DNA from: a virus
DNA: 10,882 bases
Direction: 5' to 3' (one strand)
UHGV virus genome: UHGV-1704817
The first letter of the stretch is position 1; each line of letters starts with the position of its first letter. Positions 1-10,882 of this stretch are shown here, one piece after another. A program made the translations under genes and the position numbers. The notes beneath the pieces were generated by a model, which had not been told where the DNA came from, did not search any database, and saw only the letters and a program-made list of their open reading frames with translations.

Positions 1-397
1 CGAAAATATTGTTGAGCCGGGGCACACGTACTACATCAAGCCTGATGCGGTATATCTCGGCATCTACGAAGGATTAGTGCTGGCTGGCGTTCATGAAGTG
101 CGTAACTTCTGGCATAGCGTTGTTGAATGCCATGCGGTGTACGACCCCGGATTCCGTGGTGAATATGCACTGCAAGGGCATCGATTATTCTGCAAATGGC
201 TTCTCGAAAACTCACCATTCCTTAACAGCATCACTATGGTTCCTGACACCACAAAATATGGACGGGCAATTATCCGTTTGCTTGGCGCTACCCGTGTTGG
301 TCACCTTGATGATGCTTATATCAGATGTGGTAAACCCGTCGGCGTAACGCTTTATCAGTTAACTCGGCAACAATATAAGGAATTCAGCGAATGTTAA
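1..397 (+). CDS. Phage virion protein, C-terminal part of a gene that starts upstream of the window (position matches a P22 gp14-type gene; function not established)
   Basis: The reading frame is open from base 2 (ENIVEPGHTYYIKPDAVYLG...) and stops at TAA 395-397. Its stop overlaps the next start (ATGTTAA, ATG at 391), indicating translational coupling. Composition matches the following ejection-protein genes. Confidence 0.55.
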   Translation, partial: ENIVEPGHTYYIKPDAVYLGIYEGLVLAGVHEVRNFWHSVVECHAVYDPGFRGEYALQGHRLFCKWLLENSPFLNSITMVPDTTKYGRAIIRLLGATRVGHLDDAYIRCGKPVGVTLYQLTRQQYKEFSEC

Positions 398-1068
398 TTA
401 CCCATATAGCTCATAAACATCTCAATCGTGCCGTATACGAAAAAGGCGGTGATGGTGGTGCCTCTAAAGCTCAGGCGAAGGCCCAGCAGCAGGCAATTGA
501 TTTGCAGCGCGAGCAGTGGAATACGGTGATGAATAATCTCAAGCCGTATGCAGAAGTCGGATTGCCTGCTTTACAACAACTGCAAGGACTGATGACTCTG
601 GAAGGGCAGAATAAAGCCGCGAATGATTTCTTTGGTTCTGGTTTATATAAAACACAGGCAGATCAGGCCCGTTATCAGAACCTTGTCTCAGCAGAAGCTA
701 CCGGGGGGCTTGGCTCAACAGCTACCAGTAACCAGTTATCTTCCATTGCGCCCATGCTTTATAACAATTGGCTTAGTGGGCAAATGCAAAATTATGGAAA
801 CCTGCTAAATGTCGGGATGAATGCGGCATCAGGGCAGGCAACGGCAGGGCAAAACTACGCCAATAATACCGGACAACTCTTGCAGGGGCTTGGCGCTATT
901 CGTGCAGGTCAGGCGCAGCAGCCATCCAGTCTTGCGCGTGGTATTGGTGGGGCAGCATCAGGCGCTTTAGCGGGTGCGCAACTTGGTTCCGTTGTTCCTG
1001 GAATAGGAACTGCGGCCGGCGCTATTGGTGGTGGGCTTATTGGTCTTGTTGGGGGGCTTGGATTCTAA
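391..1068 (+). CDS. Phage DNA-ejection (internal virion) protein, gp7-like by position and size, with glycine-zipper C-terminus
   Basis: 225-aa ORF with AGGA at 378-381, 9 nt before the ATG. The C-terminal ~45 residues are Gly/Ala-rich (GIGGAASGALAGAQLGSVVPGIGTAAGAIGGGLIGLVGGLGF), typical of membrane-inserting segments. The start overlaps the upstream stop and the stop overlaps the downstream start (TAATG at 1066-1070). Confidence 0.8.
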   Translation: MLITHIAHKHLNRAVYEKGGDGGASKAQAKAQQQAIDLQREQWNTVMNNLKPYAEVGLPALQQLQGLMTLEGQNKAANDFFGSGLYKTQADQARYQNLVSAEATGGLGSTATSNQLSSIAPMLYNNWLSGQMQNYGNLLNVGMNAASGQATAGQNYANNTGQLLQGLGAIRAGQAQQPSSLARGIGGAASGALAGAQLGSVVPGIGTAAGAIGGGLIGLVGGLGF

Positions 1069-2387
1069 TGGCGACATGGCAACTTGGCGGGCTGCCTAGC
1101 ATGGCACCGCAAAATGATAATGCTCCTCGTTCTTCCGTTCCTCAGCCTGTGCAGTATCAGCAGCAGCCAAACGTAGGTTTAATGGCGCTACAGGGGCTAA
1201 GAGGCGTTGCTGAGATTAATCAGCAGGCGCAAATTTCCCAGCAGTTAAAAGAATATCAGGCACGGTTGGGTAGTGCGGTAGCTAATAATGATCGTGTTGG
1301 CGTGCAGAAGTTAATGGCCCAGTATCCCCAGTTTATGGCTGATTCTCAAAAACAGATGGGATTCATTGATGCTGAGCAAAATCGACAGACCGCTGACGCT
1401 GCCATGAATCTGCGTCTTGCGTCACAAACTGGAGATCCACTGACCATGCAGAAGGCCATTCAGCAGGCAAATCCAGTATTACAGCGATTTGGTCTTCCTG
1501 CTGAAGAGGTTTATCAGTCTTGGCAGAATGACCCACAGGAATTCAACAGAATCACTGACCTCATCCACCTCCATGCTGATCCAAATAGTTACTTTAGTGT
1601 TCAAGAGAAGCAGCAAGGGCAGAGCATTGCACAGCAGAACGCAGATACATCCGCATATAATGCTCAGGTTAATGCGGAACAGGGTAATCGACGTCTCGAT
1701 ATGGAGCAGTTCAAAGTCCTATCCGATAACCAACTACGCACGAGAGAAATGGTTCTGAAAGCACGACTTGGACGTGCTCAAAATGACATCGAGAGAGACA
1801 AGCTCAATGCTGAACTGAGCAAGGTACAGCAGGCGAAAGTGGAGAAGATGAACGATAAAATTAATACTGTTGTAGGTAACATCGACTCCTTGAACTCTGC
1901 GCTTGAAGTGGGTCATGAACTGGCGGGAATTGTAGGGAAACATCCTTCGGCCGTTACCCGCTCGCAGAACTATAACCCCCTGACGCTGGGGTTTGGATTC
2001 CTTCCTGATGTAGCAGAAGACACACGAAGCCTACGCGCCAAAGCTGATGAATACAACCTAAAGGTTATTCTGCCTAGCCTCAAAGGGACTTTTGGCTCTA
2101 ACCCAACCGAAGGGGAAAGGGCTGCCCTTATGCAATCTCAAAATGGCATTAAGTCAGCAACCAGCAATGAGGCATTTTTGCGAGAGTTGAATAAAGCGCA
2201 GGACGTAATTATTCGAATGCAGAAACGACAGATTGCCGGGCTCGGTATTCCTGTAACCAAATCTAAGGACGAAGAAACTGATACCAAAATGCTGTTGCAG
2301 GATCCTTCACTGGTTAAGGATTATGTGACCGCACATGGCTATCTGCCGGAAAGTTACTATCAGGCAAAACTTAAGGGATGGCAATGA
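1068..2387 (+). CDS. Phage DNA-ejection (internal virion) protein, gp20-like by position and size
   Basis: 439-aa ORF, Gln-rich and predicted helical, coupled to both neighbours (TAATG upstream, ATGA overlap downstream). Second gene of a three-gene block matching the gp7/gp20/gp16 order of P22-like podoviruses. Assignment is by synteny and size, not alignment. Confidence 0.75.
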   Translation: MATWQLGGLPSMAPQNDNAPRSSVPQPVQYQQQPNVGLMALQGLRGVAEINQQAQISQQLKEYQARLGSAVANNDRVGVQKLMAQYPQFMADSQKQMGFIDAEQNRQTADAAMNLRLASQTGDPLTMQKAIQQANPVLQRFGLPAEEVYQSWQNDPQEFNRITDLIHLHADPNSYFSVQEKQQGQSIAQQNADTSAYNAQVNAEQGNRRLDMEQFKVLSDNQLRTREMVLKARLGRAQNDIERDKLNAELSKVQQAKVEKMNDKINTVVGNIDSLNSALEVGHELAGIVGKHPSAVTRSQNYNPLTLGFGFLPDVAEDTRSLRAKADEYNLKVILPSLKGTFGSNPTEGERAALMQSQNGIKSATSNEAFLRELNKAQDVIIRMQKRQIAGLGIPVTKSKDEETDTKMLLQDPSLVKDYVTAHGYLPESYYQAKLKGWQ

Positions 2388-5104
2388 TGGCACAACTGAC
2401 AGAAAAACAGAAAGCCTATTCCCGTCATCTCGATGAAAAATATGGTTTCCCATCAGGGACGATGGAAACATTAGTTGGCAATGAATCTAGTGGTAACGGA
2501 AGTGCCGAGTCACCGAAAGGAGCTAGAGGATTTGCTCAACTGATGCCCTCAGTAATGAGTGATGCTGGTTATCGTGGAACAGATCCGCGCTCACTGCCAT
2601 TTGAAAAGCAAATGGATATCGCAGCAAACCATCTCAATAAAGGAATGAAGCGATTTGGTGATATAGGTATGGCATTGGCTGGGTATAATTCTGGCTATGC
2701 TCGTATTAATGCCGTCAGAAACGGTAAATCTACACTGCCAGATGAAACGGCTAATTACGTAAGTAAATTTGCAGATGCCGGAATAATCCCTGATGACAGT
2801 GAAATCTTGCAGTTTGCACAAACCAGTCAACATCGCAATCTTCAGCAGCCTGACTACTCAGAGCTTGATAAAGAAATCTCTCAGGTGGGAGATATTTCTG
2901 CATGGGAAGCAAAACGTCAGCAATTTAAGAACATAGAAGCAGGACTACCAACAGCCAGTTCATGGGAGCAGAAAAGAGCTCAGTTTCTCGCCGATGAAAA
3001 TGCCGGGGAACCGCAGCAGCAAGTAGCCAAGTCTAACCTTAATCCTGAGATGGAATATCTTTCGCCAGGACTGAAAGCTGCGCCAGAGCAGATGGCCAGA
3101 GGGATTGCTAATATACCGTTTGATGTAATGGACGCAGGCGTGGGGGTAGTCAATGCGGCGCAATCAGCCGGAGCATGGGCAGCTCAGAAGCTTGGTGTGG
3201 GTGATGGCACATACACGCCCATATCACCTGTCTTTCGCCCAGTAGACCAACCTACAGATCCATACGCGCAGGCTGGTGAGCAGCTAGCACCTTACCTTAT
3301 TACAGGATTAGGTGCAGGAAAGGCAGCTACCGCAGCTTCTTCAGTTGCCAACGCTCCACGTGCTGAACGTGCGGCCACAAAGGTGGCTAGTATGTTGGCA
3401 GAAAACCTGCCAGGTACATTGGTGAACGCCCAAAAGAACGGGCAGATCAGCCCAGAAGACCTAGCAAAAGAGACAGGTATTGGCCTAGCAGGATCGCTAG
3501 GAGCACGCGCTTTAATAAAGAGCGGACAGACAGCCAGTGACGTAATGCGAGATGTATTGCGGAGTAATACAAATCAATCAGGCCATGTGTTAGGGGCAGC
3601 AAATACTCTGGAAACCGCCAATGATGTATCGAAAGCAGCGCGTTCTGCCGTAGGCCGAGAGCATATCGCATCGCAGGCATCAAACGTCAGAGATGATGTC
3701 GCTAAGGCGGCGAAAATCACTGGTATTAATATCAACACCCTGACGCCTGGAATGCGCTCAGGTAGTCGTGGAATTGCCCAAGCAGAAGGTGTTCTGGCAT
3801 CAACTCCTGGGAATGTTCAGGATGCTCACCTTACGGCCTTCAATGAAATATCCTCAAAGTTGAATAAGCAGTTGTCTGATTTCGGTGCTGAGTCTGGAAG
3901 CGCATCAGAAAAAAGCGCAGCAATTAAAGAGCGCATCATCGCGAGCCTCAGTGATATGAAAACAGCAGAGAATATGGCATGGGCAGAACTGCGAAGCACG
4001 ATGCCACGCGAAAGGATGAAAATGAGTAATGGGATGGCTGTCGTCCAAGCAGAAAAAGCAGCCAATGTTCCACTCAGCCCGGAGATGAAACAGTTTCAGG
4101 CTGCCAACAACCAAGGTGGCGGCATAACCTTCGACGGGATGAAGGCATGGCGTGCTAAGTTTGCTGATGCTGAACAAGCAAACACCCGGGCAGGTAAGGC
4201 CAATGCCGCCCGGATTGCCGGAGAAATGCGCAGAGCTATCACTGATGACATGCGCATCATGGCTGAAAAAGGAAACTTCCTCACAGAATGGCAGAAAGCT
4301 AACGATCTCTCTAAAAGTTACATTATCGCCAAACAAAATGCCGAATCTGTTTTTGGTCGAGATCTCGCATCAGACGCTATGGTAAGAAAAGGTGCCGATA
4401 CGCTTAAGGCATCCGCAAACACTGGAACGGGAGCTTTTCACCGTCTTATCTCCGCGCTGCCGGAAGCAGAACGCCAACCTGCAATAGCATCTATTCTTCA
4501 GCATGCTGTGGCGCAGGGAGAGAAGGGAGGAATCGGTGAAGAGTCAGGTATCCAGTATTTTGCCAAGCTCATGACCCAGCAGAATGTAAACGCCATCAGT
4601 CGTCATGCGCCAGATCTCGGTAGAATGATGAAAGAGTTCGGTGTACTCGCTAAAGCCAGTACCAGACCGCAGCGATACGTAGAGCGCACGGGAAGAACAA
4701 CTGAGGCTCTCAAAACGCTCGATTCAGGCCTTCCAAAGATCGTCGGCGTGATTATGAACGGAGTTCAACAGTCAGGTGCGATCGCTGGAGGCTTTGGCGG
4801 TGGTGTAATTGGTTCGATTAGTGGTTTGGTTGCTGGTGGCGCGCTAAGAAATGCTGTGGCTAAGATTGGGGCGACAAGAAGTGGTCGATATGCGATAGAG
4901 AAAGCCGTTCAGGAAGCTACAAAAGCAGTGCGCGCAGGGGCATCACCAGCAGCGATCGCCGCAGCAGAGAAACGATTTTCGGCCAATAAAATTGCCATGA
5001 AAGCAATTCGTGATGCCGTTGGGGCTGAAGAATTCGTGAAACTGACAAGGGCCGGGATTGTAGCTACCCTCAGTGGCATGAAAGATGTTAGCGAATGGGA
5101 ATAG
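2384..5104 (+). CDS. Phage DNA-ejection / internal virion protein with N-terminal lytic transglycosylase (SLT) domain
   Basis: Long ORF ending at TAG 5102-5104. The SLT motif set is visible in the first ~120 residues: ES catalytic motif (LVGNESSGNG), GFAQLMP (GLMQ-like) and AGYNSGYARI (AYNxG-like). A glycine-zipper hydrophobic segment lies near the C-terminus (GAIAGGFGGGVIGSISGLVAGGAL). Start chosen at ATG 2384 because AAGGGA (2373-2378) sits 5 nt upstream; the six-frame track starts at 2378, which overlaps that SD; ATG 2387 is also possible. Confidence 0.85.
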   Translation: MMAQLTEKQKAYSRHLDEKYGFPSGTMETLVGNESSGNGSAESPKGARGFAQLMPSVMSDAGYRGTDPRSLPFEKQMDIAANHLNKGMKRFGDIGMALAGYNSGYARINAVRNGKSTLPDETANYVSKFADAGIIPDDSEILQFAQTSQHRNLQQPDYSELDKEISQVGDISAWEAKRQQFKNIEAGLPTASSWEQKRAQFLADENAGEPQQQVAKSNLNPEMEYLSPGLKAAPEQMARGIANIPFDVMDAGVGVVNAAQSAGAWAAQKLGVGDGTYTPISPVFRPVDQPTDPYAQAGEQLAPYLITGLGAGKAATAASSVANAPRAERAATKVASMLAENLPGTLVNAQKNGQISPEDLAKETGIGLAGSLGARALIKSGQTASDVMRDVLRSNTNQSGHVLGAANTLETANDVSKAARSAVGREHIASQASNVRDDVAKAAKITGININTLTPGMRSGSRGIAQAEGVLASTPGNVQDAHLTAFNEISSKLNKQLSDFGAESGSASEKSAAIKERIIASLSDMKTAENMAWAELRSTMPRERMKMSNGMAVVQAEKAANVPLSPEMKQFQAANNQGGGITFDGMKAWRAKFADAEQANTRAGKANAARIAGEMRRAITDDMRIMAEKGNFLTEWQKANDLSKSYIIAKQNAESVFGRDLASDAMVRKGADTLKASANTGTGAFHRLISALPEAERQPAIASILQHAVAQGEKGGIGEESGIQYFAKLMTQQNVNAISRHAPDLGRMMKEFGVLAKASTRPQRYVERTGRTTEALKTLDSGLPKIVGVIMNGVQQSGAIAGGFGGGVIGSISGLVAGGALRNAVAKIGATRSGRYAIEKAVQEATKAVRAGASPAAIAAAEKRFSANKIAMKAIRDAVGAEEFVKLTRAGIVATLSGMKDVSEWE

Positions 5105-5254
5105 ACGCTCTAACTAACAAAACCATAATAGCCAAGGACGGCATACTGATATTGAGCCAACTATCAAAATTCCATATCACATTACGAGCCTGTGGCTTAC
5201 ATTCGCTTACAGTGATGATAATTTATAACCACGCAATTCTTAGGTGAGATTATC

Positions 5255-5953
5255 ATGATTAAAAATCTTCTTTTAATATTATCCCTGTCATTATTGGCTG
5301 GATGCGTACAAAAACCGTTAGTAACGGTCAATGCTTTATCTTCCGGGCAATCTGTCGGTAAGAAGTTCTTGATCATCCCCGCAAGCCAAGAACTTTGGAA
5401 CACCAAACAGATTGAATACACTCAAATAGCTACGGTAGTAGCCGCCAGTTTATCAAGCCAAGGATATACACAAGTTAAAGATGAAAAATTGGCTGACCAG
5501 GTAATTCTCTTGAACTTTTTGAGAAGCGGGGCCATTTCAAATACTCGTAATGTAACCATCCCAATATACGGGCAAACTGGTGTGAGCTCAGCAACAACGT
5601 ACGGAAACTCGAACACCCCGTTCAATAGTTATGGTGGTGGCTACGGTACAGCTAATACCACTGGAACGGCAACAACAGTTTATACGCCTACTTATGGAAT
5701 TACTGGCGCGTATAACACAACTGTGACGGACACGTTCTACGGCGCAGGGGTGATACTCCAGTCGTTTGATGCCAAGGCTTATCTCAATAATCGGCAGATT
5801 AATATGTTATGGAAAGTTGGTAGCTCAGTCGTCTCGCAACAGTCTGATGGAATTGCTGATTACAAAGGGTTGGCGAGAATAGCCGCTAGCTATGCCGGGA
5901 AAAATACAGAAGGTGATATAACTTTTAATGTTGACCCTAAAGCACCAAATTAA
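5255..5953 (+). CDS. Putative lipoprotein (prophage cargo / moron), possible surface or superinfection-exclusion factor
   Basis: 232-aa ORF with SD AGGTGAG (5243-5249). N-terminus MIKNLLLILSLSLLAGC is a signal peptide with a lipobox (LLAG-C, Cys17). Central T/G/Y/N-rich low-complexity stretch (SATTYGNSNTPFNSYGGGYGTANTTGTATTVYTPTYGITGAYNTT). Gene is AT-rich relative to the upstream ejection genes and preceded by a 150-bp AT-rich intergenic region. Confidence 0.75.
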   Translation: MIKNLLLILSLSLLAGCVQKPLVTVNALSSGQSVGKKFLIIPASQELWNTKQIEYTQIATVVAASLSSQGYTQVKDEKLADQVILLNFLRSGAISNTRNVTIPIYGQTGVSSATTYGNSNTPFNSYGGGYGTANTTGTATTVYTPTYGITGAYNTTVTDTFYGAGVILQSFDAKAYLNNRQINMLWKVGSSVVSQQSDGIADYKGLARIAASYAGKNTEGDITFNVDPKAPN

Positions 5954-5960
5954 CTAATAA

Positions 5961-5986
5961 GCCCGGTACGCCGGGCATTCATGCCC
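5961..5986 (+). terminator. Putative intrinsic terminator hairpins downstream of the lipoprotein gene
   Basis: GCCCGG-tacg-CCGGGC (5961-5976) overlapping GGGCAT-tc-ATGCCC (5973-5986), 8 nt after the lipoprotein stop. The following U-tract is weak (ATTCAT..TTATTC), so the call is tentative. Confidence 0.35.
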
Positions 5987-6034
5987 CTATTATTCATGAA
6001 TCGCTTTTTCTGGAAGGTATGCGACAAACGTTAA

Positions 6035-6319
6035 GTGACATTGCCTACACATTCGGGCTCAAATCCGCTCCCAGTTGATGGGGCCGTTACAGTACGCGCA
6101 TATCCGCTTTATGTGAAACAGGAAGATTTTTCTGATATCACAGCCACAGCAAAACACCAATTTCGAGACAAGTACGCACACAATGGAGGGGAGTACCATG
6201 AAACTGTTCTCTACACGAGACAGAGTGGTGGTGATGTGTTGATTATCGGCGTATATGCGCACAGGACGCGCTATGACAATGTTTTATGCGGGTACACCAA
6301 TCACATGTATCTGGTGTGA
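6035..6319 (+). CDS. Questionable ORF (94 codons, GTG start only, no SD); overlaps repeat copy 1; probably a gene relic or non-coding
   Basis: No in-frame ATG start; the track's first codon is GTG at 6035 with no upstream Shine-Dalgarno. Contains the conserved GACAAGTACGC element at 6167-6177. Confidence 0.15.
   Translation: MTLPTHSGSNPLPVDGAVTVRAYPLYVKQEDFSDITATAKHQFRDKYAHNGGEYHETVLYTRQSGGDVLIIGVYAHRTRYDNVLCGYTNHMYLV
6159..6181 (+). repeat. Copy 1 of a diverged direct repeat with perfectly conserved 11-mer GACAAGTACGC
   Basis: AATTTCGA-GACAAGTACGC-ACAC, with the 11-mer at 6167-6177. Same orientation as copies at 6400-6410 and 9105-9115. All three share ATTT(C/T)G(N)GACAAGTACGC(R)C(R)C. Confidence 0.7.
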
Positions 6320-6342
6320 TAAATCGCGTTACATGACCTCTC

Positions 6343-6540
6343 ATGTTGTGCTGGTGGTTATCACGACGTTCTGAATCTGGCTTTTGTCTGATATTTTGCG
6401 ACAAGTACGCGCGCGTAACATCGAAATTATCGGATGGCGTATGTTGCTGGCAAGATAAAGCCGGCGTAATACAAAGGCGTTACTTGATAGCAGCAAGATT
6501 ACAACAATGGTTGTTGAATTTGAGCGATGTAAGGAATTGA
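6343..6540 (+). CDS. Questionable ORF (65 codons); overlaps repeat copy 2; probably non-coding
   Basis: No convincing SD, and the ORF is Cys/Trp-rich in an unusual way. Contains GACAAGTACGC at 6400-6410. Confidence 0.12.
   Translation: MLCWWLSRRSESGFCLIFCDKYARVTSKLSDGVCCWQDKAGVIQRRYLIAARLQQWLLNLSDVRN
6391..6419 (+). repeat. Copy 2 of the GACAAGTACGC repeat family
   Basis: ATATTTTGC-GACAAGTACGC-GCGCGTAAC, with the 11-mer at 6400-6410. About 45 bp around the core aligns with copy 3 at roughly 75% identity with one indel (ctggcttttgtctgatattttgc vs ctggcggtttctggtatttcgg upstream of the core). Confidence 0.7.
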
Positions 6541-6751
6541 TTTAGGGAGGCGCTGATGGCTAAAAAGTTCCACTACCAGCGGATGAATGCGCCAGCGATG
6601 GCCGTTTGGTAGTAAAAGAGGAGCCATTCCTCAATCAGTTGAATACATTATGCCAACTAAATGGGTGGGGCACTGTGTGGGTATTCAGCGGTGACGGTAT
6701 TTTTTAAGCCAAGGACTATCCGTAGCAGGGGGACTCATTTTGAAATATTTA

Positions 6752-7189
6752 TCATATGTAACTTATTATTTTAGATAAAGATTTCCAGTTAAAGAAAAAA
6801 GTTATCATTGATATAATCAAATATGCCCCTGCGAGTAGCAGGGCATAATAATCCAGAGGCAGATTGCTGACAACAGGGGCAAACATCGAGATCATTGCTA
6901 ATAGGCAGGCTGTGATCAGCGTAGTTCCTGTATCAAAAAGCCCCTCAATAATGCCTTTTAGTACTCCGTTACTTTTTAGAGCGCCTACAATTCCCTTTGA
7001 ACTATCAAAGCTACTTAGCATGGTGACTGATGCCAAAACAAAACCAAAGAGAACTCCAGAAATAGTTGAAAGAGCACCAGCAGCCGAAATGACAGCATTG
7101 TGATCTAGGTCGTGTAAAAAATGGGCACCAGCAATAGCCATAGCTAGAGCAAACAATGACTTGGCAGCAAACAATTTCCGAGAACTCAT
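6752..7189 (-). CDS. Small multi-pass inner-membrane protein (145 aa, about four TM helices); second gene of a two-gene operon; candidate membrane effector
   Basis: Minus-strand ORF with AGGA 7 nt upstream of its ATG. It starts 12 bp after the TAA stop of the 361-aa gene. Four long hydrophobic segments (about residues 9-24, 32-60, 85-110, 113-135) and an HDLDH motif in the first loop. AT-rich. Confidence 0.75.
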   Translation of the reverse strand: MSSRKLFAAKSLFALAMAIAGAHFLHDLDHNAVISAAGALSTISGVLFGFVLASVTMLSSFDSSKGIVGALKSNGVLKGIIEGLFDTGTTLITACLLAMISMFAPVVSNLPLDYYALLLAGAYLIISMITFFFNWKSLSKIISYI

Positions 7190-7201
7190 AATGTATTCCT
7201 G

Positions 7202-8287
7202 TTACGTTTGACTAACCAAATAGTACTGGGTTAGATACCTAAGGTTGTCATTCTTTGCTTGTAGCATAGCATTTTTAACGTCAGTATCGGTCGGATACCC
7301 ATCTGCTTGGATAGGCACCATCTTCTTTACCGTAAGAACTTCGTCTACAAGACTTTTCTTCTTTTTATCGCCCTGAGCAACAACATTTGCTTTCTCAAAA
7401 GTTAAACGACCATCACCACCAGGGAACTTTTCTAGCATCTCCTTAAGGCTTTTTTTAACGTCATCCTCAAGCCATCCCTTTGCTTTTCTTTTTAATGGAG
7501 AATGTCCGCGTAACGAAATAGTCAGGTGGCTTGAACTGGTGCCTCTGATCATCTCAATCATCTGATTCGCGAACATTCCATCGAGTTGATACTGTGCGGC
7601 ATTGAAGTTTCTTGGGATGGCCACAGAAATCTCGCAGCTTCTTAGATTGGATCCAGTTTCGAGTAGTTCTTTGATGCTTTCTTCTTTCCAAATGGCTTCA
7701 AAAGAAACAGGGACTCCGCGATCACTGGAGTTGAAAAGAAGGAAGGCTAAGTCACTATGGCGTGGACCTAAATGATTTAAAGACAATACTAGAATGTCTG
7801 TCTGAGGATAATAAATAAAGTATGTACGTTCTGAAAGAGTCTTTGCCCCGGCTAGAGGGATTTTCTCTTCCACCCACTCTTTATCTGTAATATATGCCAG
7901 TGTTGCGCTTTTTCTTCTTCGAGACATGAATCCGAAGTAGGAGCCATCCTCGGGTGAGATGTCTAGAAAATGAATTTTAAGTTCTCTTTCACCAAAGTCT
8001 GCATAGTGGGTCATCTTGAAGTCTTTAGAACACCGATCATACAGATTTTTAAAGGCCTCTGCGGTTAACCCCTTGTTACTAGTGCGAATATTCTCAGAGC
8101 TTGTGTAAAAGCCCACCCTTACAGATTTCAAACTTTGATCTTTTGGTGCCACAGTCATTTGAGCTCCATTGTACTCTGCGATAGTTTTTGCACACCTTGA
8201 AATCAAAATCTCCATGTCAGTCACGAGAAAATAACTATGGATGAAACCCATCAAAGGCATTGAATACAGGTGGCTTTTGAGAATCAT
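7202..8287 (-). CDS. Hypothetical soluble protein (361 aa), first gene of a two-gene operon with the downstream membrane protein; candidate sensor/enzymatic component of a defence or abortive-infection module
   Basis: Long minus-strand ORF with AGG(T) about 5 nt upstream of ATG 8287. A sampled 60-bp stretch (7441-7500) is 38% GC, against roughly 50% by eye for the phage late genes. No Walker A or other catalytic motif recognised by eye. Preceded by a 487-bp AT-rich divergent control region. Confidence 0.8.
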   Translation of the reverse strand: MILKSHLYSMPLMGFIHSYFLVTDMEILISRCAKTIAEYNGAQMTVAPKDQSLKSVRVGFYTSSENIRTSNKGLTAEAFKNLYDRCSKDFKMTHYADFGERELKIHFLDISPEDGSYFGFMSRRRKSATLAYITDKEWVEEKIPLAGAKTLSERTYFIYYPQTDILVLSLNHLGPRHSDLAFLLFNSSDRGVPVSFEAIWKEESIKELLETGSNLRSCEISVAIPRNFNAAQYQLDGMFANQMIEMIRGTSSSHLTISLRGHSPLKRKAKGWLEDDVKKSLKEMLEKFPGGDGRLTFEKANVVAQGDKKKKSLVDEVLTVKKMVPIQADGYPTDTDVKNAMLQAKNDNLRYLTQYYLVSQT

Positions 8288-8637
8288 CCTAACCTGGTGA
8301 CGGTGGTTCGCATATCCTGATGGATGATCAGTGATTAATCAATGCGCCAAGCAGATGTGTCTATGTGTTTGTTAATCATTGCATGACAGTAGATCGACAT
8401 GGGAGATCACGTTATATAGTTGAATTGTTAGGATATCCATGCACCGATCAACTGACTAGGCTGATGTGCTTTTTAGCAGGTGCCATATAGTAGTTAGGCG
8501 GTTCTGTGAAATGATTACTGTTCCAGCATAACTGCGGCATAAAGCGGTGCTATATAAGCTATTTGCTGGCGGATTTAGTCTTCACCGTTAATATATGTAG
8601 TGACTATTTGACAGAGTGTTAGTTCACGGACACTTTT

Positions 8638-8670
8638 TGTTGGTTCAAAATGAGTTGATGTTGGTTCAAT
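8638..8670. repeat. Two copies of TGTTGGTTCAA (reverse complement of TTGAACCAACA) spaced 21 bp apart; putative regulator-binding sites
   Basis: TGTTGGTTCAA at 8638-8648 and 8659-8669, start-to-start spacing 21 bp (two helical turns). Inverted relative to the tandem array at 8712-8738. Confidence 0.65.
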
Positions 8671-8711
8671 ATTTTAGAAAAAACACAATAAAAACAACGC
8701 TCTTTACAAAT

Positions 8712-8738
8712 TGAACCAACTGAACCAACTGAACCAAC
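8712..8738. repeat. Three perfect tandem copies of TGAACCAAC (iteron/operator-like) immediately upstream of the PerC-like gene promoter region
   Basis: TGAACCAAC at 8712-8720, 8721-8729 and 8730-8738 with no spacer, ending 17 bp before TATAAT (8756-8761). Confidence 0.7.
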
Positions 8739-8774
8739 ACCTTTTTGCTTATCTATATAATCTGAGAGGCAGAA

Positions 8775-9056
8775 ATGATAAGGGACAGGAAAGCTGAAGA
8801 GCTGGAGTCAAAAGGGCTATACCGGAGAGCTGCCGCACGATGGATGGAAGTCATGCTGTTATGCACCGAGGACGATGATCGGGAATGGATAAAGCGCCGC
8901 CGTGAAACGTGTCTGGAGAACGTGAAGCGCCCGCCCGTGAAGGTTGAGGAATTTGGCGACCTGCATAAAGCTGTTACCGAAACGCAACACCGCATGGGGA
9001 TAGCGCAACCGAACGGTAACGCCTTCCGGTTAAATGGCGGCAAGAGGCAAAGGTAG
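8775..9056 (+). CDS. PerC-family-like small transcriptional regulator (prophage-encoded, Pch/PerC-type)
   Basis: 93-aa ORF with SD GAGAGG 5 nt upstream. The N-terminal motif AEELESKGLYRRAAARWMEVMLL matches the LE..G(L/W).RRAA.RW signature I recall for PerC/Pch proteins; this is from memory, not alignment. Basic C-terminus. GC is higher than in the flanking cargo. Confidence 0.6.
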   Translation: MIRDRKAEELESKGLYRRAAARWMEVMLLCTEDDDREWIKRRRETCLENVKRPPVKVEEFGDLHKAVTETQHRMGIAQPNGNAFRLNGGKRQR

Positions 9057-9094
9057 ACCACCAGAGGGAAATCATCCTCTGGCTGGCGGTTTCT

Positions 9095-9123
9095 GGTATT
9101 TCGGGACAAGTACGCGCACGCGT
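9095..9123 (+). repeat. Copy 3 of the GACAAGTACGC repeat family
   Basis: GGTATTTCGG-GACAAGTACGC-GCACGCGT, with the 11-mer at 9105-9115, 49 bp downstream of the PerC-like stop and in the same reading frame as that gene. Confidence 0.7.
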
Positions 9124-9228
9124 AGCACCCAATCGGTGAGGAAATAGCGGCGACCTGAATGGTCAAAATCACAACGCAGCTATCCCCGTAAGCATCGCTT
9201 AACGGAATAGCAGTAACCTGAATCCAGT

Positions 9229-9293
9229 GGGGAGGGGGTAGTCAAATCTCTACAGGCCTGACTATCCGGGACTGCCCGCCCCATCGTTTTTTT
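9229..9293 (+). terminator. Putative Rho-independent terminator (GC-rich imperfect stem plus T7 tract)
   Basis: GGGGAGGG (9229-9236) can pair with CCCGCCCC (9275-9282), giving 7 GC pairs and one mismatch around an internal CGGG-actg-CCCG hairpin (9267-9278). It is followed by ATCG and TTTTTTT (9287-9293). The structure is non-canonical, hence low confidence. Confidence 0.35.
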
Positions 9294-9353
9294 ATACCCG
9301 CGAAAAATGAAATTTAATCCGGGCGTGTTTCATCCTTCCAGAGGGTATGACGT

Positions 9354-9539
9354 ATGACACCACGCGAAATAGCCTTATTGACCATCGCCAAACTTGAGCA
9401 CGGAGGCCACCAGCTTACACAGGCAGATCAACGGGAGATAGAACGATCAGTTAATGCCGATATAGCCCGGCGCGACAGGTTCCGCGAAATGATGCGAGCA
9501 CCTGCCTACCAGTGGAAGAAGCCAGCGCCGCGCAGGTAG
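9354..9539 (+). CDS. Small hypothetical protein (61 aa), predicted helical and basic
   Basis: ATG preceded by GAGGG with 8-nt spacing, located just after the putative terminator, suggesting its own transcription unit. No recognisable family motif. Confidence 0.45.
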   Translation: MTPREIALLTIAKLEHGGHQLTQADQREIERSVNADIARRDRFREMMRAPAYQWKKPAPRR

Positions 9540-9659
9540 ATATGGGATTATTCCACATGTAACTTATGCGTATTAAGCAAATTTCCTTTATTCACCTTTA
9601 CAGAATTGTGAGTACGTCAGTATCGTTATCCTTCCGATTCGCATTTATTCAGGATTTGC

Positions 9660-10202
9660 ATGTACCAGCTAAAGATAACCATCCGAGACAGCAAACCACC
9701 TATATGGCGGCGTGTGCTGGTTCCAGAGCAAATCCCCTTTAGTAAACTTCATGCCGTGATCCAGTTAGCTTTTGGCTGGAATGACGAACACCTGTATATG
9801 TTCGAGAAAGGGCGTAAAGGTGATCCAGGTAGCGAGTATCGCGTATGGGGTGAGGATGAAAGCATGGGTAACGCGGCAATCACGCCACTATGGGCGGCGC
9901 TCCAGAATGAGGGTGACAAGCTGGTTTACACGTATGACTTTGGCGACTGGTGGGATTGCGTCATTGTGCTGGAGAAGCAAACACACGATACGAGTAATCA
10001 GCCCATTAGCTGCCTGCGTGGGAAAGGCACCACCCCGGCGGAAAACTCAGGCGGCTTGCATGGTTACAATGAATTGCTATTACAGGCCAGAGAGTCTGAT
10101 AATCCTGAGCAGGCCGAGATCCACAATTTCCTGATGCTGGATATTGAACGCCGGGTTTACGACCTGAGCCGCATCAACGACAGATTGCAGGCTATTAACT
10201 GA
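9660..10202 (+). CDS. PRiA4_ORF3-like (plasmid pRiA4b ORF-3 / MM3350-like domain) protein
   Basis: 180-aa ORF with AGGA 5 nt upstream. The N-terminus YQLKITIRDSKPPIWRRVLVPEQIPFSKLHAVIQLAFGW matches the hallmark of this family (YQLK..L....PPIWRR..VP......LH..IQ...GW) from memory. Confidence 0.7.
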   Translation: MYQLKITIRDSKPPIWRRVLVPEQIPFSKLHAVIQLAFGWNDEHLYMFEKGRKGDPGSEYRVWGEDESMGNAAITPLWAALQNEGDKLVYTYDFGDWWDCVIVLEKQTHDTSNQPISCLRGKGTTPAENSGGLHGYNELLLQARESDNPEQAEIHNFLMLDIERRVYDLSRINDRLQAIN

Positions 10203-10554
10203 CCCGCATGTATTCACCTGATATTGAGTTATCAGCGCCGCCAGTATCGCGCATAACAGCACAATGACCGGGTAAACCGTAACGCACGACCGTTGCGTTA
10301 GTCTCACCGCCGCGCCGTATCTGGCGCGATTCATACACTGTCACCCGCTCAAGCAGTCCACCAGCAACCATGCTTTCCAGTGTGCGCCGGGTTGATTCGA
10401 GCTGGTGACGCTTATCGAACGACACCATGCCATGAAGCAGGTAGGCCACACCCGACACATCGAACGGCGGCGCACCACTCTCACCAGTCACCCATTCGAG
10501 GTTATCCGGTTCAAAGTAGCTAAGTATCTCTTTTTTGCGGCTGGTCATTCTCAT
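10195..10554 (-). CDS. Hypothetical protein, putative winged-helix DNA-binding protein; convergent with and overlapping the 3' end of the PRiA4_ORF3-like gene by 8 bp
   Basis: 119-aa minus-strand ORF with AAGGAA 13 nt upstream of the ATG. Segment RRTLESMVAGGLLERVTVYESRQIRRGG resembles a recognition helix plus wing (GLLER followed by a beta-hairpin) of wHTH regulators. GC-rich relative to the cargo. Confidence 0.5.
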   Translation of the reverse strand: MRMTSRKKEILSYFEPDNLEWVTGESGAPPFDVSGVAYLLHGMVSFDKRHQLESTRRTLESMVAGGLLERVTVYESRQIRRGGETNATVVRYGLPGHCAVMRDTGGADNSISGEYMRVS

Positions 10555-10703
10555 GGCTGGTTGATTCCTTATTGTGGGATAGCACTATCATACAATAAGT
10601 GGGTTAAAGGGAGAGCGTTACCGCCTGATATGCTGTATGAATAACAACCAAATTTCAGGGGCGGAAAAAGATATGGGGGTACTTTTGGGGGTATCTATAA
10701 AAA

Positions 10704-10882
10704 ATGAACAATAAAAAAGGCAACAAAAACAAAGCTTATCGCCTATGTGTATTGTTCCTATTATCGCACCATTTAAATCAAGTAGTTACCCCATATTTAA
10801 ATACACCACGTTTCCTCCTGTGCCGTATTTGTGCCATTGTAACCCTGGCAATTAATCAAAATACTGTTCTGACATCAGGCAA
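10704..10882 (+). CDS. Possible 5' end of a gene running off the window (59 codons open, Lys/Asn-rich N-terminus then a hydrophobic stretch); very tentative
   Basis: ATG at 10704 is open to the window end in frame (MNNKKGNKNKAYRLCVLFLLSHHL...). There is no good SD and the region is AT-rich, so this may simply be open frame in intergenic DNA. Confidence 0.15.
   Translation, partial: MNNKKGNKNKAYRLCVLFLLSHHLNQVVTPYLNTPRFLLCRICAIVTLAINQNTVLTSG

What the first reader, a model, noticed from the sequence alone, without database searches (positions are those of the whole stretch)
6159..6419. Diverged direct repeat family sharing a perfectly conserved 11-mer GACAAGTACGC (copies 1 and 2 in the degenerate region after the lipoprotein gene)
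Seen in sequence: GACAAGTACGC occurs at 6167-6177, 6400-6410 and 9105-9115, all on the same strand and all preceded by ATTT(C/T)G and followed by alternating purine-C. A specific 11-mer is expected about 0.003 times in 10.9 kb by chance, so three copies is highly non-random. Copies 2 and 3 align over about 45 bp with one indel. Copy 1 shares the upstream TCTGATAT block with copy 2 but has a roughly 24-bp insertion, and both are followed by a related ATTATCGG..GCGTAT segment at different distances. Inference: these are paralogous diverged copies of a sequence unit, possibly module-boundary or recombination sequences marking cargo insertion joints, a shared regulator-binding element, or the 5' part of a small-RNA family. 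The surrounding 94- and 65-codon ORFs lack credible starts, so I regard the region as degenerate rather than coding.
Basis: partly seen in the sequence, partly recalled or inferred. Interest (0 to 1): 0.6.

Follow-up and report, generated by a model that had tools for sequence, protein, structure and literature searches.

The report
Helper-phage packaging-site mimics in a satellite
The repeated 11-mer is real, and it copies a short DNA sequence otherwise found inside the small-terminase gene of the phage that mobilises this chromosomal island, so it is probably the signal that gets the island packed into that phage's capsids.

Summary
GACAAGTACGC occurs at 6167, 6400 and 9105, all on the + strand (0 of 200 shuffles reach 3 copies). 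There is also a partial copy at 6091.

The window is 98% identical to EcCIMP1. This is an E. coli phage-inducible chromosomal island that phage Kapi1 transduces. It has no terminase genes, and how it is packaged is unknown (PMC11773190).

The repeat core TTYGNGACAAGTACGC(G) matches the single exact copy in the Kapi1 genome. That copy lies in its Sf6-type terS gene, at the codons for F-R-D-K-Y-A.

In 39 diverse Sf6-type terS genes these codons are under strong synonymous constraint (GCG p=1e-12, GAC p=5e-8). The gene therefore carries a DNA-level element at this spot.

A pattern scan found at least 74 untranslated copies of the extended motif GAGTTTYGNGACCAGTACGCGCGCG(CG)AGG in mobile elements of many phyla. 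Extra copies nearby are mostly direct repeats.

Best explanation (about 0.55): these are TerS-recognition (pac-type) site mimics that let the satellite use the helper's terminase. TerS binding itself is inferred, not shown.

Rfam scans, RNA folding and ORF tests gave no support for an sRNA or coding reading. The "cargo junction" idea is only partly supported: copy 2 abuts a variable-cargo junction, copy 3 does not.

The parts
6086..6101 (+). Partial copy (core ACAGTACGCGCA; lacks the TTTYGNG prefix)
   Evidence: Pattern scan. Conserved in L001, L002, L004, L021 and EcCIMP1.
6160..6182 (+). Copy 1: ATTTCGAGACAAGTACGCacaca. In the window it is a fusion of two ancestral copies (ACAAGTACGC...ACCAGTACGC) after a 53-nt deletion that removed a GTTGCAAAAAATTTTGCAAC hairpin.
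   Evidence: alignment.
6387..6419 (+). Copy 2: TCTGATATTTTGCGACAAGTACGCGCGCGTAAC. It contains the 12-bp palindrome TACGCGCGCGTA. It lies 24-60 nt left of the junction with variable cargo.
9092..9126 (+). Copy 3: TCTGGTATTTCGGGACAAGTACGCGCACGCGTAGC, 36 nt after the stop of the PerC-family gene and 10 nt after a CCAGAGG/CCTCTGG hairpin (9061-9082).
   Evidence: Identical or nearly identical in 13 related loci.
6461..8615 (-). Variable cargo slot. Here it holds two minus-strand genes of unknown function (6752-7189, phrog_8552; 7202-8287, phrog_7651). EcCIMP1 has alpA_1 here, and other relatives have other DNA.
   Evidence: No PADLOC match.
2..5104 (+). Satellite-borne homologues of P22-type virion genes: DUF2824 (gp14-like, cut at the window start), gp7 (391-1068), gp20-like (1068-2387), gp16-like with an SLT domain (2378-5104). 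This is the module downstream of the primase in EcCIMP1-like islands.
   Evidence: 90% nt identity to Kapi1 over window 29-424. Gene order in L030, L317 and L321.
8775..9056 (+). PerC-family regulator gene (the EcCIMP1_025 homologue), part of the conserved right-hand block that carries copy 3.
   Evidence: Pfam PF06069, E=3.7e-30. Function in EcCIMP1 is described in PMC11773190.

Best explanation
The repeats are noncoding copies of a short DNA element (core TTYGNGAC[A/C]AGTACGCG, extended consensus GAGTTTYGNGACCAGTACGCGCGCG(CG)AGG). Its other known location is inside the terS gene of Sf6-type small terminases (Pfam PF20901), where it encodes E-F-R-D-(K/Q)-Y-A-R-A-R-E just after the N-terminal DNA-binding domain.

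The window is an EcCIMP1-like phage-inducible chromosomal island. It has no terminase genes, and the P22-like phage Kapi1 transduces it. Kapi1's terS carries the same sequence.

Most likely mechanism: the terS-internal element is the recognition (pac-type) site of the Sf6-type TerS. The satellite carries three to five same-strand copies, so that after excision and replication the helper's TerS/TerL complex recognises satellite DNA and starts directional headful packaging on it. This would be packaging-signal mimicry.

Shown:
- the sequence identity with the helper's terS;
- that the element is single-copy in the helper genome;
- synonymous-site constraint at this spot in terS genes;
- that the satellite copies are noncoding;
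- that no terS is present in the sampled parts of the satellite;
- the wide distribution of noncoding copies.

Taken from the literature: satellite status and mobilisation by Kapi1.

Inferred: that TerS binds this element, and that the copies drive packaging.
For: 1. Identity of the element. Window 1-6460 and 8616-10773 are 98% identical to EcCIMP1 of E. coli MP1. EcCIMP1 is excised and transduced only with Kapi1, has no identifiable terminase or capsid genes, and its packaging mechanism is stated to be unknown (PMC11773190).

2. Link to the helper. Kapi1, Sf6 and HK620 share an Sf6-type terS. The 39.4-kb Kapi1 genome has exactly one exact match to TTYGNGACMARTACGC, at 18876-18891 inside terS. 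The window and the island in L317 each have three exact matches, all on the + strand. EcCIMP1 carries the same three copies on one strand. An alignment with Sf6 and Kapi1 terS shows 14 invariant columns: TTT, G, GAC and AGTACGC.

3. A DNA-level function inside terS. In 39 terS genes below 85% amino-acid identity (GC3 from 0.32 to 0.81), codon choice at this spot is far from background. GAC 21/21 against 44% (p=5e-8). TAC 37/39 against 61% (p=3e-5). GCG 26/30 against 23% (p=1e-12). TTT p=3e-4 and CAA p=3e-4. Most control columns show no such bias. The bias holds in the 30 genes that lack the D[KQ]YA.. peptide pattern.

4. The satellite copies are not translated and are not terS pseudogenes. Stops lie within a few codons in all frames. 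A TerS HMM finds nothing in six-frame translations of the window and relatives at E<=10.

5. Generality. The genome scan returned 100 loci against about 17 expected by chance (my arithmetic). In the 73 distinct noncoding copies, flanking positions that were not part of the search pattern are conserved (GAGT before, CG.G after). Some of these loci also hold primases, integrases, int-alpA RNA or C4/isrK RNAs. None of the noncoding loci has an Sf6-type terS within its 8 kb. Extra copies within 600 bp are direct (17) rather than inverted (3), with about 2 expected per strand.

6. Precedent. The satellite PLE mimics 14 bp of the pac site of its helper ICP1 and needs those 14 bp for transduction (10.1101/2024.04.22.590561).

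7. From memory, not verifiable here. The abstract of Leavitt, Gilcrease, Wilson and Casjens (2013, Virology 440:117) states that the Sf6 pac site lies within the part of terS that encodes the TerS DNA-binding domain.
Against: - No binding or packaging data exist for this sequence.
- EcCIMP1 is transduced by Kapi1 at a very low rate (PMC11773190). That is not what three good pac sites would predict.
- A review reports that Sf6 TerS binds pac DNA weakly and mostly without sequence specificity in vitro (PMC9611059).
- The motif (codons 55-63 of Sf6 gene 1) lies at the very end of, or just after, the DNA-binding-domain coding part. I could not read the paper that mapped the Sf6 pac site.
- Identity with the helper is limited to 17-19 nt.
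- Only 2 of 21 EcCIMP1-bearing strains carry a Kapi1-like prophage.
- Many noncoding copies in other phyla are single, and I did not verify that their host elements are satellites.
- terS genes mostly use CAA where my noncoding set has CAG. The search pattern forced the CAG or AAG reading, so this comparison is not clean.
Confidence: 0.55

Rival explanations
1. TerS decoy or interference sites. The copies do bind the helper's TerS, but their role is to titrate or misdirect the terminase. That could contribute to the superinfection immunity reported for EcCIMP1, rather than packaging the island.
For: The sequence evidence is the same as for the best explanation. EcCIMP1 adds to superinfection immunity against Kapi1 and is transduced only rarely (PMC11773190).
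Against: EcCIMP1 does not reduce Kapi1 titres from induced lysogens or Kapi1 infection of non-lysogens. Transduction, though rare, is specific to the island. The two roles are not mutually exclusive.
Confidence: 0.12
2. Recombination or module-boundary sequences. Short conserved stretches act as homology patches through which cargo modules are exchanged between islands, and perhaps with phage terS genes.
For: Cargo differs among relatives directly to the right of copy 2, with breakpoints 24 or 60 nt after the 11-mer. The window itself lost 53 nt by recombination or slippage between two copies. terS genes of P22-like phages are mosaic (CUS-3-type genes match only query positions 338-423).
Against: The right-hand cargo junction (8616-8757) has no copy, and copy 3 lies 350-490 bp further in. 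Copy 1 and the partial copy flank nothing variable. A passive homology patch explains neither the synonymous constraint in terS across genes of 40-50% amino-acid identity nor a sharply bounded 30-nt motif in many phyla.
Confidence: 0.09
3. Binding sites (operators or iterons) for an island-encoded protein such as the TOPRIM/DUF927 primase-helicase, AlpA or the PerC-family regulator. They would control replication or transcription of the island.
For: The copies are direct repeats in clusters. In 11 of the scanned loci a homologous 600-920-aa protein, the primase in the annotated ones, lies within about 5 kb. Copy 3 directly follows the PerC gene. In other island variants the copies lie upstream of the isrK/C4 immunity RNAs.
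Against: This does not explain why the same sequence lies under synonymous constraint inside phage terS genes. In the window the copies are 5-8 kb from the primase gene and are not next to an AT-rich region. No single island protein family accompanies the motif across phyla. No sigma-70-like promoter lies nearby on the + strand.
Confidence: 0.08
4. An RNA-level element: either the 5' part of a small-RNA family, or a transcript (a promoter-like site lies on the minus strand at 6453-6426) that pairs with the helper's terS mRNA.
For: A minus-strand promoter-like site (TTGCCA-16-GATAAT) would read through the complement of copy 2. 17-19 nt of complementarity to terS mRNA would be enough for antisense pairing.
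Against: No Rfam match. Folding z-scores from -0.41 to +2.1 on both strands. No conserved flanks or terminator. The promoter-like count is at chance level (9 found against 7.6 expected). An antisense role would select for divergence in terS, not for conservation of its synonymous sites.
Confidence: 0.05
5. Functionless relics: decayed fragments of a former terS gene, or local duplications.
For: The motif reads as a terS peptide. The region is noncoding and prone to indels.
Against: Only about 30 nt are retained, with sharp edges, in 73 distinct noncoding copies from many phyla. There are several copies per element. There is no residual protein similarity. The three copies are conserved among hundreds of E. 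coli genomes.
Confidence: 0.03

Closest known systems
pac-site mimicry by the Vibrio cholerae satellite PLE (helper ICP1)
   Same: A satellite carries a short stretch identical to part of its helper's packaging site (14 bp in PLE; 17-19 nt here), with little other similarity to the helper. In PLE the stretch is needed for transduction.
   Different: ICP1's pac lies in an intergenic region and PLE has one copy. Here the model sequence lies inside the helper's terS coding sequence and the satellite has 3-5 direct copies. PLE also encodes its own packaging specifiers and a TerL inhibitor. Function is shown for PLE and only inferred here.
cos-site carriage by satellites: P4 (helper P2), SaPIbov5, and E. 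coli PICIs such as EcCICFT073 with Rpp
   Same: These satellites lack a terminase and carry the helper's packaging signal so that the helper terminase packages them (general knowledge; referred to).
   Different: Those are cos (cohesive-end) signals for lambda-, P2- or HK97-type terminases. The present helper is a headful (pac) packager of the P22/Sf6 type. EcCIMP1 lacks similarity to the packaging modules of those PICIs.
EcCIMP1, the Kapi1-dependent PICI of E. coli MP1 (Pick, Stadel and Raivio 2025)
   Same: The window is 98% identical over 8.6 kb, has the same gene order, and has the same three repeat copies.
   Different: The cargo between copy 2 and the PerC gene differs: two unknown genes here, alpA_1 in EcCIMP1. 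The window has a 53-nt deletion in copy 1. The paper does not mention the repeats (no use of 'intergenic' or 'noncoding') and leaves the packaging mechanism open.
Intragenic pac sites of headful phages (P22 pac, 22 bp inside gene 3; Sf6 pac inside gene 1)
   Same: The recognition site of the small terminase lies inside the terS gene itself (P22; Sf6: my memory of the Leavitt 2013 abstract). The synonymous constraint found here fits such a site.
   Different: The P22 pac sequence (AGAGAAGATTTATCTGAAGTCG) and the P22 TerS family are unrelated to this motif. For Sf6 no minimal sequence is known to me. That the motif is the Sf6 pac site is my inference.

Membership tests
Satellite packaging-signal mimic (pac/cos mimicry) | The host element is a phage satellite mobilised by a defined helper. 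| tested here: met
   98% nt identity to EcCIMP1. Kapi1-dependent excision and transduction of EcCIMP1 are shown experimentally in PMC11773190.
Satellite packaging-signal mimic (pac/cos mimicry) | The satellite lacks its own small terminase. | tested here: met
   A TerS HMM finds nothing at E<=10 in six-frame translations of the window, L001 and L002. No terminase gene is annotated within EcCIMP1 or within the island in L317. The authors report no identifiable terminase genes.
Satellite packaging-signal mimic (pac/cos mimicry) | Sequence identity to the helper's packaging recognition site. | tested here: inconclusive
   Identity to a unique 16-19-nt stretch in Kapi1/Sf6 terS is shown. That this stretch is the pac site is inferred from synonymous constraint and from my memory of Leavitt 2013. 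The paper could not be read.
Satellite packaging-signal mimic (pac/cos mimicry) | The sequence is required in cis for helper-dependent transduction. | not testable with these tools
   Needs deletion and plasmid-transduction experiments.
Known RNA families (Rfam, including isrK, C4 and c4-a1b1, which neighbour the motif in other islands) | A match to a covariance model over the repeat. | tested here: not met
   No match in the window at E<=1. In L019, L022, L064 and L104, isrK and C4 lie 100-300 nt downstream of the motif and do not cover it. A gathering-threshold scan of 18 loci gave no family over the motif.
Sf6-type small terminase gene or pseudogene (PF20901) | An open reading frame, or residual protein similarity beyond the 10-residue motif. 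| tested here: not met
   Stops lie within a few codons in all frames. No HMM hit. No Pfam or PHROG hit for the two ORFs.
Replication-origin iterons | Clustered direct repeats next to the initiator (primase/helicase) gene and an AT-rich stretch. | tested here: inconclusive
   Direct repeats are present. In EcCIMP1-like islands they lie 5-8 kb downstream of the primase gene. AT-richness and initiator binding were not tested.
Module-junction or recombination sequences flanking cargo | Copies at both ends of the variable segment. | tested here: not met
   The left junction is 24-60 nt from copy 2. The right junction at 8616-8757 has no copy, and copy 3 is at 9105.

The most novel reading that the evidence does not exclude
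The roughly 30-nt sequence GAGTTTYGNGAC(C/A)AGTACGCGCGCG(CG)AGG is the recognition site of the whole Sf6-type small-terminase family. It is written into the family's own coding sequence, which would explain why EFRDQYARARE is among its most conserved peptides. Hitch-hiking elements in many bacterial phyla copy it as a portable packaging tag. If so, helper-satellite pairs could be predicted from sequence alone, and many 'defective' islands that lack packaging genes (for example the Type C PICIs of SatelliteFinder) would be explained.
Probability: 0.3. Interest if true: 0.85.

Novelty: new variant of a known kind. Interest (0 to 1): 0.66.

Why it matters
EcCIMP1-like islands are common: the repeat region is found in 545 of 5426 complete E. 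coli genomes. The one studied member is known to be transduced by a P22-like phage, but nobody knows how it is packaged.

The repeats give a concrete candidate cis-signal that can be tested with a few deletions.

The same analysis points to a specific 20-30-nt candidate for the pac site of Sf6-type terminases. As far as I could establish, that site has been located only to a region of the gene.

It also suggests that islands without any packaging genes, in many phyla, may carry the same tag. If confirmed, this would be a general sequence-based way to link satellites and other hitchers to the terminase family of their helpers.

Tried and rejected
- Rfam scans of the window (E<=1), of five related loci and of 18 loci from other phyla found isrK, C4, int-alpA and tRNAs nearby, but nothing over the motif.
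- RNA folding of all three copies on both strands gave no stability signal.
- The promoter and terminator scan was at chance level.
- Searching the 94-codon ORF against the protein database returned only short hypothetical ORFs of differing extent.
- blastn of window 6000-6760 against the phage collection gave no match.
- A full-text search for the sequence string found only unrelated papers.
- Idea: the motif marks the upstream region of P27-type terS genes. I saw this in only two or three loci.
- Idea: Sf6-type phages have extra copies around terS. Counts were at chance level.
- Idea: the cargo genes are a known defence system. There was no PADLOC hit.
- An oriT/nic-site resemblance (MOBQ TAAGTGCGCCCT), a LexA-box-like reading, an Ogr/Delta-site reading and Z-DNA potential were considered from memory. 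I dropped them for lack of any supporting test.
- A hairpin UUUCGCG/CGCGAGG around the core was considered. The variable position N does not covary, because its proposed partner is invariant.
- Leavitt 2013, Zhao 2010 and Zhao 2012 could not be read in the library.
- My first loose pattern scan of viral contigs mostly returned unrelated coding hits.

Full report
**Observation.** GACAAGTACGC occurs at 6167, 6400 and 9105, all on the + strand. With one mismatch allowed, chance expects 0.13 matches, and none of 200 shuffles reaches three. The repeat finder groups the three sites as one 29-nt family, with 66-86% identity to copy 2. A scan for the shorter core AGTACGCRCR adds a partial copy at 6091. 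In relatives, copy 1 is followed by gcgcgaggggtatcaGTTGCAAAAAATTTTGCAACtgcgtccGACCAGTACGCacaca. The window therefore lost 53 nt by a deletion between two AGTACGC repeats. This 53-nt indel and a 2-nt indel in EcCIMP1 shift the frame of the 94-codon ORF. EcCIMP1 also has TGA in the motif frame. The ORF's only database relatives are short hypothetical ORFs of differing extent, and neither ORF has a Pfam or PHROG match.

**What the window is.** The + strand encodes homologues of P22-type virion proteins:
- DUF2824 (gp14-like);
- gp7;
- gp20-like;
- a gp16-like protein with an SLT domain.

These are followed by a 232-aa protein with no family match, the repeat region, two minus-strand genes of unknown function, a PerC-family regulator, a 61-aa ORF and a pRiA4b-ORF3 protein. 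Annotated E. coli genomes place this block at the far end of an integrative island of about 18-20 kb. The island begins with an integrase and continues with an AlpA-type regulator, an antirepressor, an Icd-like gene and a TOPRIM/DUF927 primase. In strain 510016 the island is inserted in a DNA-methyltransferase gene of a lambdoid prophage.

A literature search led to EcCIMP1 of E. coli MP1. Window 1-6460 and 8616-10773 are 98% identical to it, and EcCIMP1 has the same three copies. Pick, Stadel and Raivio (PMC11773190) showed the following:
- EcCIMP1 excises only when the P22-like phage Kapi1 is present.
- Kapi1 transduces it specifically, though at a very low rate.
- It has no identifiable terminase or capsid genes.
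- They state that the packaging mechanism is hard to characterise.
- They do not mention the repeats.

**Where else the motif occurs.** A scan of viral contigs found the same three copies in many E. coli prophage-type contigs. It also found further copies in related islands, 100-300 nt upstream of the isrK and C4 RNAs. The hosts include Proteobacteria of all classes, Acidobacteriota, Planctomycetota (Phycisphaeraceae), Nitrospinota (Nitrospinaceae), Saccharibacteria, Bacteroidota (Rhodothermaceae) and others.

About a quarter of the hits are ordinary coding hits. In the 73 distinct noncoding copies, positions that were not in the search pattern are conserved: GAGT before the pattern (T in 66 of 73 at position -1) and CG.G after it. 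Nothing further out is conserved. No frame is open around these copies.

The neighbouring genes vary. Recurring neighbours include primases (11 loci), integrases (9 loci), int-alpA RNA, C4 and isrK RNAs, and tRNA genes, so these look like integrative mobile elements. Extra copies within 600 bp are direct (17) rather than inverted (3), with about 2 expected by chance per strand.

**Link to the small terminase.** Read in one frame, the consensus spells E-F-R-D-Q-Y-A-R-A-R-(E). The coding hits with this peptide are small terminase subunits of the Sf6 type (PF20901, phrog_1482). Sf6, HK620 and Kapi1 carry such a terS. In Sf6 gene 1 the sequence GAT TTT CGC GAC AAG TAC GCG covers codons 55-61. It shares TTT.G.GAC.AGTACGC with every window copy. 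The E. coli satellites and the E. coli phages share the minority K variant (GACAAG). Kapi1's 39.4-kb genome has one exact match to TTYGNGACMARTACGC, inside terS. The window and the island in L317 have three each.

**Is there a DNA-level element inside terS?** I collected terS genes by protein homology and kept 39 with less than 85% amino-acid identity to one another (GC3 from 0.32 to 0.81). I compared codon choice in each conserved column with the rest of the same genes.

| Codon at the motif | Observed | Background | p |
|---|---|---|---|
| GAC (Asp) | 21/21 | 44% | 5e-8 |
| TAC (Tyr) | 37/39 | 61% | 3e-5 |
| GCG (Ala) | 26/30 | 23% | 1e-12 |
| TTT (Phe) | 27/37 | 37% | 3e-4 |
| CAA (Gln) | 23/31 | 39% | 3e-4 |

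- Of 40 control columns, only one reaches p<1e-4.
- When Ala is replaced by Thr the codon is ACG in 6 of 6 cases. Every Asn or His codon in the Asp column ends in C (5 of 5).
- The bias persists in the 30 genes that lack the motif peptide pattern and so must have been found through the other pattern.

These genes are related by descent, so the p-values overstate independence. At 40-50% protein identity, however, synonymous sites should be saturated. The phages do not have extra copies around terS.

**Mechanism.** The simplest reading is that the terS-internal element is a cis-acting site for the terminase, and that the satellite copies mimic it. This fits four points:
- pac sites of headful phages can lie inside terS (P22);
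- my memory of the Leavitt et al. 2013 abstract, which places the Sf6 pac site in the part of terS that encodes the DNA-binding domain (I could not read the paper);
- the island has no terminase of its own;
- PLE provides a precedent, since it needs a 14-bp mimic of the ICP1 pac site.

The same-strand arrangement suits a directional headful start. An island of about 20 kb would have to be packed as a multimer in a head holding about 40 kb. That step is inference.

**Points against.**
- EcCIMP1 transfer is rare.
- Sf6 TerS shows weak, largely non-specific DNA binding in vitro.
- The motif lies at the edge of the domain-coding region.
- Identity with the helper is only 17-19 nt.
- Few EcCIMP1-bearing strains carry Kapi1-like prophages.

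I put this explanation at about 0.55.

**Rivals.** A decoy role for the same TerS-binding sites is possible and could coexist with packaging. The junction or recombination idea fits copy 2 and the 53-nt deletion, but not copy 3, the constraint in terS, or the sharply bounded motif across phyla. Sites for an island protein are not excluded, but they do not explain the terS link. RNA readings lack any support. Functionless relics are unlikely.

**Novelty.** Packaging-signal mimicry by satellites is known, and EcCIMP1 itself was described in 2025. Three things appear to be new:
- these repeats;
- their identity with a constrained sequence inside the helper's terS;
- the wide spread of untranslated copies of that sequence.

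I found no mention of these in the library.

Noticed in passing
L019 (- strand, about 6610), L022 68-87, L064, L156, L186 7115-7134, L194, L202, L212; also L002 3554-3573, L011, L021, L030. Not in the window.: A second conserved noncoding motif, CCTGTCAAAACCTGACAT, made of two 10-bp direct repeats AAACCTG(T/A)CA. In 8 loci it lies 30-70 nt from the main motif, in islands of Enterobacteriaceae, Haemophilus and Rhizobium. In L002, L011, L021 and L030 it has no main-motif copy within 400 nt; in L002 it lies just downstream of the primase gene.
   Followed up: partly
window 8706-8738: Three tandem 9-bp units (ACAAATTGA/ACCAACTGA ACCAACTGA ACC...) about 40 bp upstream of the PerC-family gene. They lie within the zone where homology to relatives resumes after the variable cargo. 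They could be an operator or promoter element.
   Followed up: no
window 6350-6357: A Chi site (GCTGGTGG, + strand) lies 43 nt upstream of copy 2. It is conserved in most relatives, and a few have tACTGGTGG instead. Chi next to a putative packaging start could matter for RecBCD protection.
   Followed up: no
window 2-5104; L030 5140-9798; L321 5481-10649: The satellite carries its own homologues of P22-type gp14-like, gp7, gp20 and gp16 ejection proteins, while having no capsid, portal, tail or terminase genes. Window 29-424 is about 90% identical in DNA to Kapi1. Why a satellite would supply ejection proteins is unexplained.
   Followed up: partly
window 6461-8615 versus L321, L004, L021 and L025: This is a cargo hotspot. 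Start-to-start distance from copy 2 to copy 3 is 1390, 1743, 2297 or 2705 bp in different relatives. The window's cargo is two unknown genes (phrog_8552, phrog_7651) with no PADLOC hit. EcCIMP1 has alpA_1 in this slot.
   Followed up: partly
L317 15057-15161 (- strand): PGAP annotates a 35-codon pseudogene fragment as 'DNA-packaging protein' in the leader upstream of the Icd-like gene and the isrK/C4 region of the island in strain 510016. It is on the opposite strand to the operon. I did not establish what it resembles.
   Followed up: no
L317 10811-11221 and 29661-30297: In E. coli 510016 the island is inserted inside a DNA-methyltransferase gene of a lambdoid prophage, between Q and the tRNA/lysis genes. 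A satellite is thus nested in a prophage. In strain PK8276 a shorter version without the primase module lies next to paoD, with a retron Ec67-type reverse transcriptase beside its integrase.
   Followed up: no
L173 (proteobacterial metagenome-assembled genome), around 1845-1890: Here two copies of the motif form a near-perfect 35-nt palindrome (ACCAGTACGCGCGCGCGTGCGCGCGCGTACTGGT), unlike the direct arrangement seen elsewhere.
   Followed up: no
L138, labelled Chryseobacterium sp. 18061: This contig region carries an enterobacterial-type island (isrK/C4-type leader, primase) nearly identical in layout to those of Enterobacter and Kosakonia. That suggests contamination or misbinning in the assembly.
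   Followed up: no
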